Origin: Carcharhinus amblyrhynchos
Taxonomy: Eukaryota
DNA: 64,000 nucleotides
NCBI GenBank assembly: GCA_965287045.1
Contig: OZ336877.1
Span: 4,712,001-4,776,000, forward strand
Direction: 5' to 3'
How positions within the stretch are numbered: position 1 is the stretch's first letter; each line of letters starts with the position of its first letter. The notes below the pieces were generated by a model. That model was not told the origin of the DNA and made no database searches. It saw only the letters and a list, made by a program, of their open reading frames with translations. This document shows, in pieces, positions 9,568-61,570 of this stretch. A program made the translations under genes and the position numbers.

Positions 9568-10617
9568 CTATTCTTTAGGTTTGCAATTTTTATCAGATTG
9601 CACATTTCTATGCAGGCCCCTCTGAATGTGTGTCATAAAGTCATACTTGTCTGTACAGAAATGCTGGCATATGCTACACTGGAAAGGTCCACTTTCACCA
9701 TGGCAACTCATATGCAATGCGTACATCACTTCATCCATAAACAGAATGCTGCAATGAACACACTTCGTCAGTGATTCATCTTGCGTGCCTTGGTCCACTT
9801 TGTCCGGGGATTTGACCACATTCTCTACGCTCTCCTCCGCCGTGGTTACCGAGGCGTTAACTTTGTCCTTCGCGGCGTCGTTTGCGGCTGGTCCTGACCT
9901 GGAATGTTTCGTGGCCAGATCCAAAGGAATGTCATTATCAGAACCAACAGACGAGAAAGTCGGAGGCAGGTTAAAGGCAGGATAAGGCACAAAGTTTTGG
10001 CAAGGGTTTGGTAGGCCAGGCACATGGTAGTGTGGATTCCCAGCGACAGACAATTTATATTTACTCCAGAACCTCAGCCAATCTGCTTCATTTTGTAAAT
10101 CACTATGCACAAACTGAAATCCAAACAAAGGATACTGGTACTTTTCAATAGGGCTTCCCGGAGGCGAGTAATTTGGGTGCTTTGTAGGTCGAAGGTATTT
10201 TTCAATCGGGCTTCCGCGTTCCGAACTTCCTTTCCCTTCTGCTACAGGCAAACAATTTCCTGGCTCTACACTGCTTTCCTGAGGGCTCTTTACTTGAACG
10301 TGCAGTGGCTGCATTCTTCTGTGAAGGTCCACAGTCTGGCCAACCACTAACGTGGGCTGGCTCTGGTGTGACTTATTCACCGACCCATAGAGATCAAGTT
10401 TGCTCAGATTAGGCTGCTCCCGGTGCTGACTCTCTGCCGAGTGCTCCTCCGATTTCCTTTCTAGCGAGCTGTCGTTCAGTTGCTCCTCGTTGCCCACTCT
10501 CTGCTGCTTATTGACTTGCTCTGGCTGGAGTACCTCCGGGTTAAGACGCTTCCTTGTCCGTCTTCGGATGATCTGCTCCCCGTTGCTTTGCTTTATAATA
10601 TTTAAAGGGCGCGGAGT
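9568..10617 (-). CDS. trps1: TRPS1 (zinc finger transcription factor Trps1), last coding exon, 349 aa + TAG
   Basis: Minus-strand acceptor ttgtttgtttctag|ACT CCG CGC opens [27 protein letters not shown]..., in frame with the 309-aa track ORF. It contains the NLS RRRTRKR (10546-10566), duplicated GSPIEKY, PLDLA (9913-9927), two Ikaros-like fingers CVHC..HMSCH / CSIC..HIQRGLH (9610-9762) and the C-terminus KPKE*. The 1050 nt equal 350 codons. Confidence 0.97.
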
Positions 10618-16647: not shown

Positions 16648-16720
16648 AGTACAGTAAGAAGTCTGACAATGCCAGGTTAAAGTCCAAGAGGTTTATTTGG
16701 CAGCACTAGCTTTTGGGGTC
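16648..16720 (-). mobile_element. truncated Penelope-like short element (family at 35036 and 61474)
   Basis: Reverse complement reads ccaaaagctagtgctgccaaataaacctcttggactttaacctggcattgtcagacttcttactgt. Confidence 0.75.
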
Positions 16721-26738: not shown

Positions 26739-26936
<198 letters not shown>

Positions 26937-34925: not shown

Positions 34926-35035
34926 CAAAGTCCTCTATTTTAAAAATTACTTTACTCATATATCCTAAGTGTGAAAGTTGCTTTTTTCCCACTTAAGGCA
35001 AGATATATAGTATTGAGAATACAACTGAGAGATTC

Positions 35036-35165
35036 TCACGTGACAAAGGAGCAGCGCTCCAAAAGCTAGTGGCGTTTGCCACCAAATAAACCTGTTGGAC
35101 TTTAACCTGGTGTTGTGAGACTCCTTAGTGTATTTACCCCAGTCCAACGCCGGCATCTCCACATC
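35036..35165 (+). mobile_element. Penelope-like short element with a decayed hammerhead-ribozyme fold
   Basis: TCAC-GTGACAA-A-GGAGC-AGC-GCTCC-AAAA-GC-TA-GTGG, followed by ccaaataaacctgttggactttaacctggtgttgtgagact...cagtccaacgccggcatctccacatc. Confidence 0.75.
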
Positions 35166-35394
35166 AAGACATAACACAGCCAGGCACAGAGTAACCAGTT
35201 CACTTGCTGTTCCCAGCAATTCACCCACTCTAACTTGGACCACCGCATGCATGCTCTAAACCATTCTCTTCAGCATCACCAATTCAGTAGATATCATAAC
35301 TGCCCTGTTCCTTAGACGTGCATTATCTTTTGTCTCTCCTGGTGCTTTAACAAGCCCTTTAAACAGACTCCACTTGGGATTTCCAGAACGCGCT

Positions 35395-58227: not shown

Positions 58228-58566
58228 GTAGAATTACTACAATGCTACAGGGGGCCATTTGGCCCATCGTATCTGCACTGAAGCTCCATTACAGCATCTC
58301 ACCCAAGCCAGGCCCACCCCCTGTCCTATCCCTGCACATTTATTCTGCTAACTCATCTAACCAACACATCTTTGTGACACTATGCGTCAACTCAGAATGG
58401 CCAGTCCATCTAACCTGCACACCACTGGACTATGGGAGTAAACCGGAGCACCCAGAGGAAACCCAGACAGCCACAGGAAGAACGTGCAAAATGCACACAG
58501 TCACCCAAGGCCAGAATTGAACCCAGGCCCCTGGAGCTGAGAGGCAGCAGTGCTAACCGCTGTGCA
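58228..58566 (-). mobile_element. HE1-type V-SINE
   Basis: Reverse complement shows the head gcacagcggttagcactgctgcctctcagctccagggg..., the V-domain, and a CR1-derived tail. Confidence 0.85.
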
Positions 58567-59236: not shown

Positions 59237-59388
59237 AAGCAAATCACTGCAGATGCTGGAATCTGAAACCAGAAGTGCTGGAAAATCTCAGCAAGTCTGG
59301 CAGCATCTCGAAGAGAAAAGAGCTCTTTTTCTCTCCTTTCTGATGCTGCCAGACCCGCTGAGATTTTCCAGCATTTTCTCTTTTGATT
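59237..59388. mobile_element. Penelope pLTR-derived near-perfect hairpin element
   Basis: tgctggaaaatctcagcaagtctggcagcatc (59276-59307) is inverted with gatgctgccagacccgctgagattttccagca (59342-59373). The centre gagaaaagagctctttttctc is also palindromic. Confidence 0.8.
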
Positions 59389-59391
59389 CTA

Positions 59392-59532
59392 AGTTCGTTG
59401 CATTGGCCTGCTAAATTCTCCCCCAGTGTACCCGAGCCGGCACTGGAGTGTGGTGACTAGGGGATTTTCACAGTAACTCCATTGCAGTGTTAATGTAAGC
59501 CTACTGTGACACTAATAAACAAACTTAAACTT
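59392..59532 (+). mobile_element. V-SINE 3' tail (alternative-tail subfamily)
   Basis: ctaaattctccc...ggagtgtggtgactaggggattttcacagtaactccattgcagtgttaatgtaagcctactgtgacactaataaacaaacttaaac. Confidence 0.85.
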
Positions 59533-59651
59533 AGATATGTAACACATAAAACTGCCACAAGGAACATAATGAAAGTCAAATTCTATTTCAACGAACATCC
59601 GGAAATAAATCGCTAAAAGATAAAAATTAAAATGGGGTTGAAAAACAGCAG

Positions 59652-59948
59652 AGTTTAAGTTTAAAAGATTATTTATTAGTGCCATAAGTAGACTCACATG
59701 AACACTGCAATGAAGCCACTGTGAAAATCCCCTAGTCACCAACTCCGGTGCCTGAGGGAGAATTTAGCATGGCCAATGCACTGAACCAGCACGTCTATCA
59801 AACTATGGGAGGAAACTAGAGCACCCAGAGGAACCCCACACAGACACTGGGAGAACATGCCGACTCCACACAGATAGTGACCCAAGCCAGGAATCGAACC
59901 TGGGTTCCTGGCACTGTGAGGCAGCAGTGCTGACCACTACGCTGCCCA
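59652..59948 (-). mobile_element. V-SINE (alternative-tail subfamily), full length
   Basis: Reverse complement shows head, V-domain and the same tail as 59392-59532 and 19372-19672. Confidence 0.88.
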
Positions 59949-61060: not shown

Positions 61061-61473
61061 TCCTTCACAACTTCAGGAGAAAATGGTTCAACAAATACTA
61101 AATGTTTGCAGGGAGGAAAGATCAGATCCAAAAAAAGGTTTCAGCCGTGCCTTTTGCGGTTTTTTTTTTATGAATATGTTGTCCAGTGACAGAAATCCAG
61201 CTGCCACTTGGTGATGAAATGTAAATTGTACCAATCTTAAAAGAGGCGTGGTCATTTCAGGCAGGAAGTATTGGGCAGGCCTGATGCCACGTTGGCTGCT
61301 GTGGTAACCTAGTGCTTCCTGTGGCGTAAACTGTTTTCAAGGCATTTGTTTTGGATAAAATAAATTAATAGCAGCCAACATAACAAAACCATATTTGACA
61401 AAGGCCTTGGGGTGAACTTAGTTTGGCGACAAAGTCGGGGCAATTCTCCACAGCCTGTTTCTCAGAACTCTCC

Positions 61474-61570
61474 ATTCACCTGACAAAGAGGGAGTCCCCT
61501 CGAAAGCTTGTGAGTTTCCTATCAAATAAATCGGTTGGACTGAAACCTGGTGTTGTCGGACTTCTTACAA
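61474..61570 (+). mobile_element. Penelope-like short element with a minimal type I hammerhead fold (G8 mutated)
   Basis: ATTCAC-CTGACAA-A-GAGGG-AGTC-CCCTC-GAAA-GC-TT-GTGAGT, followed by caaataaatcggttggactgaaacctggtgttgtcggacttcttac. Confidence 0.8.

What the first reader, a model, noticed from the sequence alone, without database searches (positions are those of the whole stretch)
61474..61515. Minimal type I hammerhead ribozyme fold in a short Penelope-derived element, one substitution from the consensus core
Seen in sequence: helix I ATTCAC/GTGAGT (6 bp, one G-U), core CTGACAA plus an extra A, a perfect helix II GAGGG-AGTC-CCCTC, GAAA, a palindromic AGCT in place of helix III, and cleavage triplet CUU. 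Established knowledge: Penelope-like retroelements carry minimal type I hammerheads with a palindromic helix III that fold and cleave as dimers, and G8 of CUGANGA is catalytic. Inference: this copy is inactive through G8-to-A (a CpG-type change), but the family consensus should self-cleave. The family may spread as a small non-coding retrozyme-like element in sharks. The motif lies antisense to trps1, so it would not cut the trps1 pre-mRNA.
Basis: partly seen in the sequence, partly recalled or inferred. Interest (0 to 1): 0.7.

Follow-up and report, generated by a model that had tools for sequence, protein, structure and literature searches.

The report
Broken hammerhead in Penelope retrotransposon stub
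This is a real copy of the small self-cutting RNA motif already known from Penelope-like jumping genes, carried on a 106-base stub of a protein-coding element with over 20,000 copies in this genome; this copy is likely dead, but where such stubs stop may mark where the element's RNA begins.

Summary
The motif is in the sequence as described and is not chance (0 hits in 200 shuffles). It is the known minimal hammerhead of Penelope-like elements (PLEs). It lies in a 106-nt end fragment (61463-61568) of a young, autonomous PLE: 3,026-nt unit, intact 893-aa RT/GIY-YIG ORF, at least 20,372 copies. The family keeps G8 (950 of 1,029 in this sublineage). A8 here is a CpG change made after insertion. 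Helix II covaries; helix I is only conserved. The motif is antisense in a trps1 intron. The non-coding retrozyme idea is not supported: the copies are 5'-truncated pieces of the coding element. Copies end about 60 or 97 nt past the cut site, so most templates were uncut or re-joined. Of 74 insertions sampled without regard to their 5' end, 10 stop 39-52 nt before the cut (1.7 expected), as this copy does (-47). That may mark the RNA start. Only 2 of 74 begin cleanly at the cut. Cleavage is untested. The scan has noted this kind before (259 findings, at least 25 genomes).

The parts
61463..61568 (+). 106-nt terminal (pseudo-LTR) fragment of a Neptune-type Penelope-like retrotransposon; runs from -47 to +59 relative to the predicted cut; tail-less end; no inverted partner and no target-site duplication found
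   Evidence: 5 differences in 106 nt from a natural G8 copy in L130
61474..61479 (+). hammerhead helix I, 5' strand
61480..61487 (+). core CUGANGA with A at position 8 (61485, the G of a CpG in the family) plus the extra A between positions 9 and 10.1
61488..61501 (+). helix II (5 bp, 4-nt loop); varies among sublineages with pairing kept
61502..61509 (+). GAAA box, palindrome AGCU (61505-61508) in place of helix III, triplet CUU; predicted cut after 61509
   Evidence: numbering follows PMC4209133
61510..61515 (+). helix I, 3' strand
61516..61568 (+). sequence that forms the 5' leader in full-length elements (start codon 96 nt after the cut); the copy ends at the upstream one of two preferred 3' ends
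26787..26885 (-). GATA zinc-finger exon of the host gene (trps1 by domain layout); the motif lies in the intron upstream of it, antisense
9568..10617 (-). last coding exon of the host gene, Ikaros-like double zinc finger

Best explanation
The motif is the minimal hammerhead of a Penelope-like retrotransposon's end repeat, on a 106-base 5'-truncated insertion that likely lost activity after insertion through a CpG G8-to-A change and is likely inert in its antisense intronic place. Shown: the parent is a 3,026-nt unit with an 893-aa RT plus GIY-YIG ORF; the predicted cut lies 248 nt after the stop codon and 96 nt before the next start codon; copies end about 60 or 97 nt past the cut and begin at variable points upstream. 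Inferred: the element's protein nicks DNA and starts reverse transcription inside its RNA at one of these two points, as shown in vitro for the anole element, and copies an RNA whose cut site is intact, so cleavage is not needed for most insertions. Inferred, less sure (about 0.5): stubs like this one are run-off copies of the 5' leader of an RNA that starts about 46 nt before the cut. In intact elements the ribozyme likely cuts weakly, as a pair or with protein help, and is kept by selection on source elements.
For: Family size: 21,236 and 20,372 exact-anchor matches, controls 0. Five intact 893-aa ORFs in 18 regions, two regions with head-to-tail units; two ORFs 99% identical; RVT_1 E 1.4e-9; GIY-YIG E 5e-4 in a partial ORF, below the curated cut-off. 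G8 in 950 of 1,029. All 72 A8 copies follow a C; the mirror change C7-to-T is in 10 of the first 100 listed; the neighbouring CpG decays equally (G8A 4 of 30, G12A 4 of 30). In 13 of 15 inverted insertions with an A8 arm the other arm has G8. Helix II: 3 of 4 pairs change on both sides, 95.8% of cells paired; slid controls 23-59%. 3' ends: 81 of 162 at +58 to +68, 68 of 162 at +93 to +107, none within 5 nt of the cut, matching the PLE tail (PMC8557442, PMC11167929). G8C abolishes cleavage of the anole PLE hammerhead and does not affect insertion in vitro (PMC11167929).
Against: No cleavage or RNA-end data were obtained. G8A itself was not assayed; loss of activity is inferred from G8C and general hammerhead knowledge. 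Helix I has no two-sided change, and rows are related, so the covariation is a few events. ViennaRNA does not favour the double hammerhead: -25.5 kcal/mol against -26.4 for two monomer folds and -31.8 for the best dimer. Two of 15 arm pairs are A8/A8 and one insertion has C8 in all four repeats, so some changes predate or accompany insertion. All 10 insertions in the -52 to -39 peak are fold-backs, so the peak could come from fold-back rather than an RNA end.
Confidence: 0.87

Rival explanations
1. The short copies are an independent non-coding retrozyme or SINE-like family that spreads through circular RNA using PLE enzymes.
For: Non-LTR retrozymes derive from PLE end repeats and occur in the one chondrichthyan sampled (bioRxiv 10.64898/2026.07.22.740005). 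Stubs with 5' ends at -52 to -39 are over-represented (10 of 74). One 48-nt local triplication of the motif's 5' part exists.
Against: 5' ends form a continuum from beyond -1,300 to +53. The window's helix II type is attached to long ORF pieces (L062-L065, L124, L125, L130). No tandem array of short complete units was seen in the loci fetched; the tandems found are full 3-kb coding units. The window copy is single.
Confidence: 0.05
2. The ribozyme cuts a minority of templates in vivo, and copies that begin at the cut site record this.
For: 2 of 74 insertions begin cleanly at the cut (G000 C1 near 2,705,584, direct with a target duplication; C8 near 4,917,457, fold-back). One more arm (L233) begins there. 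The core is unchanged across sublineages while helix II varies. Earlier scan notes report the same in other genomes (leads only).
Against: Expected by chance 0.37 in a 3-nt window, so 2 is not significant. Three of the five BLAST calls within 4 nt of the cut failed on inspection. None of 36 ORF-containing segments that begin upstream of the start codon begins within 5 nt of the cut. No reads beginning or ending at the cut were found for the anole element (PMC11167929). This rival can hold beside the best explanation.
Confidence: 0.4
3. This particular copy has a host function, for example in regulating trps1.
For: It lies inside the gene.
Against: Antisense, core broken, young (5 differences in 106 nt), one of more than 20,000; about 20 other pieces of this or older families lie in the same 264 kb.
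Confidence: 0.02

Closest known systems
Minimal hammerheads (min-HHR) in pLTRs of metazoan PLEs (Cervera and De la Pena 2014, PMC4209133; parts 1-2 of 4 read)
   Same: Type I layout without helix III, palindrome at 15.1-16.1, extra base between 9 and 10.1, G10.1-C11.1, thousands of dispersed single copies from truncated PLEs, opposite-strand pairs, highly variable sequence.
   Different: Copy number here (over 20,000 for one family) exceeds the 4,000 and 9,000 given for coelacanth and Xenopus. This copy has A8 with C3, not the U3-A8 covariant of Schistosoma. No shark is named in the parts read.
Poseidon element of the green anole (Frangieh et al. 2024, PMC11167929; parts 1-2 of 4 read)
   Same: Hammerhead near the pLTR-ORF junction, two reverse-transcription start points that define the tail, uncut RNA as main template.
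   Different: There the cut is 26 nt inside the ORF and the start points 111-118 nt into it; here the cut is 96 nt before the start codon and the tail ends at the start codon. This element has the CX4CXXC linker of Neptune/Nematis.
Canonical EN+ PLEs, Neptune/Nematis type (Craig et al. 2021, PMC8557442; passages read)
   Same: Single ORF with RT, DKG motif, zinc-finger linker and C-terminal GIY-YIG; partial tandems; inverted 5'-truncated copy; 30-40 nt tail at one end.
   Different: None found; clade not placed on a tree here.
Non-LTR retrozymes (bioRxiv 10.64898/2026.07.22.740005, parts 1 and 3 and passages read; PMC7229834, listing only)
   Same: Type I hammerhead related to PLE pLTRs.
   Different: Retrozymes are non-coding tandem repeats with a hammerhead in each unit; this is a single truncated piece of a coding element.

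Membership tests
min-HHR of metazoan PLEs | CUGANGA and GAAA boxes | tested here: met
   Met by the family (G8 in 950 of 1,029). This copy fails at G8, so it is a decayed member.
min-HHR of metazoan PLEs | Helices I and II, extra base after A9, G10.1-C11.1 pair | tested here: met
min-HHR of metazoan PLEs | Palindrome in place of helix III | tested here: met
   AGCU at 61505-61508; kept in 29 of 30 copies picked by anchors outside the motif
min-HHR of metazoan PLEs | Located in the pLTR of a PLE | tested here: met
   Present on both sides of intact ORFs in L119-L121 and L134
min-HHR of metazoan PLEs | Double-hammerhead fold favoured | tested here: inconclusive
   Possible but not the lowest-energy dimer in ViennaRNA
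min-HHR of metazoan PLEs | Self-cleavage | not testable with these tools
   No raw RNA reads were available
EN+ PLE, Neptune/Nematis type | Single ORF with RT and C-terminal GIY-YIG endonuclease | tested here: met
   893 aa; RVT_1; GIY-YIG weak, below cut-off
EN+ PLE, Neptune/Nematis type | CX2-5CxxC linker and DKG motif | tested here: met
   C755-X4-C760-X2-C763 and DKG at 298-300, read; definition from PMC8557442
EN+ PLE, Neptune/Nematis type | Partial tandems, inverted 5'-truncated copy, 30-40 nt tail | tested here: met
EN+ PLE, Neptune/Nematis type | Placement in Neptune rather than Nematis on an RT tree | not tested
   No named reference proteins were fetched; 'Neptune' rests on the linker and on Neptune and Poseidon being the vertebrate groups in the 2026 preprint
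Non-LTR retrozyme | Non-coding tandem units, each with a complete hammerhead | tested here: not met
   Single copy; tandems found are 3-kb coding units; the 48-nt triplication has two incomplete units and C8. Only fetched loci were examined.
Non-LTR retrozyme | Circular RNA | not testable with these tools
   Only contigs available

The most novel reading that the evidence does not exclude
The 5' ends of this family's insertions are a fossil map of the PLE RNA: a main stop about 46 nt before the cut marks the transcription start of a vertebrate Neptune element (so stubs like this one are run-off copies of the 5' leader, primed internally), and a few percent that start at the cut record ribozyme cleavage in vivo. 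With intact tandem copies and over 20,000 insertions, the family would make the open question of what PLE hammerheads do testable.
Probability: 0.35. Interest if true: 0.55.

Novelty: new member of a known kind. Interest (0 to 1): 0.27.

Why it matters
The copy itself matters little: it is one decayed stub among tens of thousands of a described kind. The family has some value. The role of PLE hammerheads is stated to be unclear (PMC8557442), and the anole work found no RNA reads at the cut. A young family with intact elements, many helix II sublineages and clustered insertion ends allows a large statistical test of where the RNA starts and whether cut RNA is ever copied.

Tried and rejected
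Rfam: no hammerhead match for the window copy or a natural G8 copy; the curated models do not pick up this minimal form, so this is no evidence either way. RNA evidence: no RNA holder on record was listed; four runs guessed to be RNA cover the element but are contigs and cannot show ends or strand. Three searches with downstream stretches of other sublineages returned nothing, probably because their words are too common, so the sample unbiased for 5' ends is 74 insertions only, and no genome-wide count of 5' ends was made. U3-A8 covariant subfamily: 1 of 79 non-G8 copies, rejected. An A8 source lineage: rejected by CpG symmetry and discordant arms. Target-site duplication at the window copy: none; only a 6-nt inverted match between the flanks; the right flank is unique in the genome. 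Exact snap-back microhomology as cause of the -46 peak: no excess (mean 2.9 nt against 3.1-3.4 upstream), imperfect pairing not tested. Three of five apparent cut-site starts were dropped on inspection. No covariance model was built; pair counts on an alignment were used. Paper searches: 'shark + Penelope + hammerhead ribozyme' gave one review, not read; no listed title or abstract start dealt with 5' ends of PLE copies at the hammerhead. Most listed papers were seen as listings only, and no supplements were read, so shark motifs may be in the supplements of PMC4209133 or the 2026 preprint.

Full report
Observation. The predicted fold has both helices. A strict descriptor with position 8 free finds only this site in the window and nothing in 200 shuffles. 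Rfam does not report a hammerhead here or in a natural G8 copy. Positions below are relative to the predicted cut (0 = first base after it).

Host gene. A GATA zinc-finger exon at 26787-26885 and an Ikaros-like last exon at 9568-10617 lie on the minus strand. Large zinc-finger exons on the same strand lie about 140 kb beyond the window's end. This layout is that of trps1 (name recalled). Small exons between were not looked for.

What carries it. The motif is part of a 106-nt piece, 61463-61568 (-47 to +59), of a repeat. Longer copies run upstream into a reverse transcriptase and GIY-YIG ORF. Five intact 893-aa ORFs were seen in 18 regions, two regions holding head-to-tail units. The unit is 3,026 nt; the cut lies 248 nt after the stop codon and 96 nt before the next start codon. 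The protein has an RT domain, a DKG motif and a CX4CXXC linker (read), which PMC8557442 gives for Neptune and Nematis PLEs. Two intact ORFs are 99% identical. Exact-anchor searches give 21,236 and 20,372 copies, lower bounds. Many insertions have an inverted 5'-truncated arm and a 37-nt tail at one end, the known PLE form. So this is a truncated piece of an autonomous element, not a separate non-coding family.

The G8 change. In the window's sublineage 950 of 1,029 copies keep G8; the other 79 are 72 A, 4 C and 3 T. Every A8 follows a C. The mirror change C7-to-T is in 10 of the first 100 listed. Among 30 copies picked by anchors outside the motif, G8A and G12A, both in CpG, each occur 4 times. 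In 15 inverted insertions with an A8 arm and a scorable partner of the same sublineage, 13 partners have G8 and 2 have A8 (three loci whose partner lacked the position or was of another sublineage were left out). A8 is therefore ordinary decay after insertion. It is the only difference from a natural G8 copy within the motif. G8C abolishes cleavage in the anole PLE hammerhead (PMC11167929), so the copy is likely inactive as a catalyst; this is inferred.

Is the structure under selection? Helix II comes in at least ten recurring sublineage forms, while the core is constant apart from CpG decay and one deletion. On 30 distinct rows (of 39 aligned, including five older-family copies), 3 of 4 helix II pairs change on both sides and 95.8% of cells pair; helix I pairs in 92.1% with no two-sided change; slid controls pair in 23-59%. 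The rows are related, so these are few events. The pattern fits selection on source elements and matches the variability that PMC4209133 describes. The double-hammerhead dimer is possible but not the lowest-energy state in ViennaRNA. This agrees with the low cleavage of minimal dimers in PMC4209133, the need for protein in PMC11167929, and cleavage in 1 of 9 Xenopus dimers in the 2026 preprint.

Ends of copies. Of 162 segments holding the motif's 5' half, 81 end at +58 to +68 and 68 at +93 to +107; none ends within 5 nt of the cut. These two points match the two internal start points of reverse transcription that define the tail in the anole element (PMC11167929). Templates thus mostly had an intact cut site, either uncut or re-joined; these data cannot tell which. 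Of 36 ORF-containing segments that begin upstream of the start codon (5 limited by the locus edge), none begins within 5 nt of the cut.

For 5' ends I used 74 insertions not chosen by their upstream part: 40 from a search with sequence downstream of the cut and 34 from a census of 1.06 Mb, seed copy and groups under 86% identity left out. The four C1 census blocks were picked because they were dense in copies. The furthest 5' point falls at -52 to -39 in 10 of 74 (1.7 expected, P about 1e-5). That interval was first seen in a biased set that shares three of these insertions; the 40 independent ones give 6, against about 1.2 by my arithmetic. The window copy starts at -47. All ten are fold-back insertions. 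Direct copies with target duplications starting at -45 to -49 exist (L019, L023, L025) but come from the biased set. Exact snap-back homology is not raised there. My reading is that an RNA starts near -46 from a promoter in the end repeat, as Drosophila Penelope has an internal promoter (PMC2377424, passages), and that internal priming in the leader runs off this end. This is inferred, about even odds. Five insertions mapped within 4 nt of the cut; on inspection two are clean, against 0.37 expected in 3 nt, which is suggestive only.

RNA data. No run on record as RNA was listed, and the four laid are contigs, so expression, ends and circles remain open.

Comparison and verdict. This works like, and is a decayed member of, the minimal hammerheads of metazoan PLE end repeats (PMC4209133). 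It fails the retrozyme test of non-coding tandem units. Earlier notes of this scan describe the same kind in at least 25 genomes; two of their leads, a fixed start and starts at the cut, prompted my 5'-end tests, and they are not counted as support. Interest 0.27.

Noticed in passing
window 35021-35166 (+): Tail-bearing stub of an older PLE subfamily with a decayed hammerhead (changes at C3, G8 and G12; different helix II).
   Followed up: partly
window 16651-16720 (-): Short tail-less relic of an older PLE subfamily holding only the 3' part of the hammerhead.
   Followed up: partly
L123:2830-3155 (G000 C7 near 33,567,928): Fold-back insertion with a 48-nt triplication of the motif's 5' part; all four repeats have C at position 8, so the change arose in the template or during copying.
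   Followed up: partly
L119-L120 (G000 C23) and L121-L122 (G000 C6): Head-to-tail full-length units of about 3,025 nt, with three intact 893-aa ORFs; candidates for active source loci and consistent with more-than-unit-length copying.
   Followed up: partly
(genome-wide): Helix II and its loop vary in length and sequence among sublineages, some with GNRA loops, although ORFs of two elements are 99% identical.
   Followed up: partly
G000 C1:144536068: One copy with U3 and A8, the covariant core described in Schistosoma; single among 79, probably two separate decays.
   Followed up: no
window 59273-59376 and 59393-59786: A 35-bp-arm hairpin (weak microRNA-family matches, all below gathering scores) next to nested inverted repeats with arms up to 55 bp; probably inverted repeat-element insertions.
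   Followed up: no
window 58429-58561 and 59802-59938: Two copies, about 80% alike, of a repeat that looks like a SINE (label recalled).
   Followed up: no
window 26886 to about 138 kb beyond the window's end: The trps1 intron that holds the motif appears to be about 175 kb long and contains many PLE pieces on both strands, one of which begins at the cut site (L083).
   Followed up: partly
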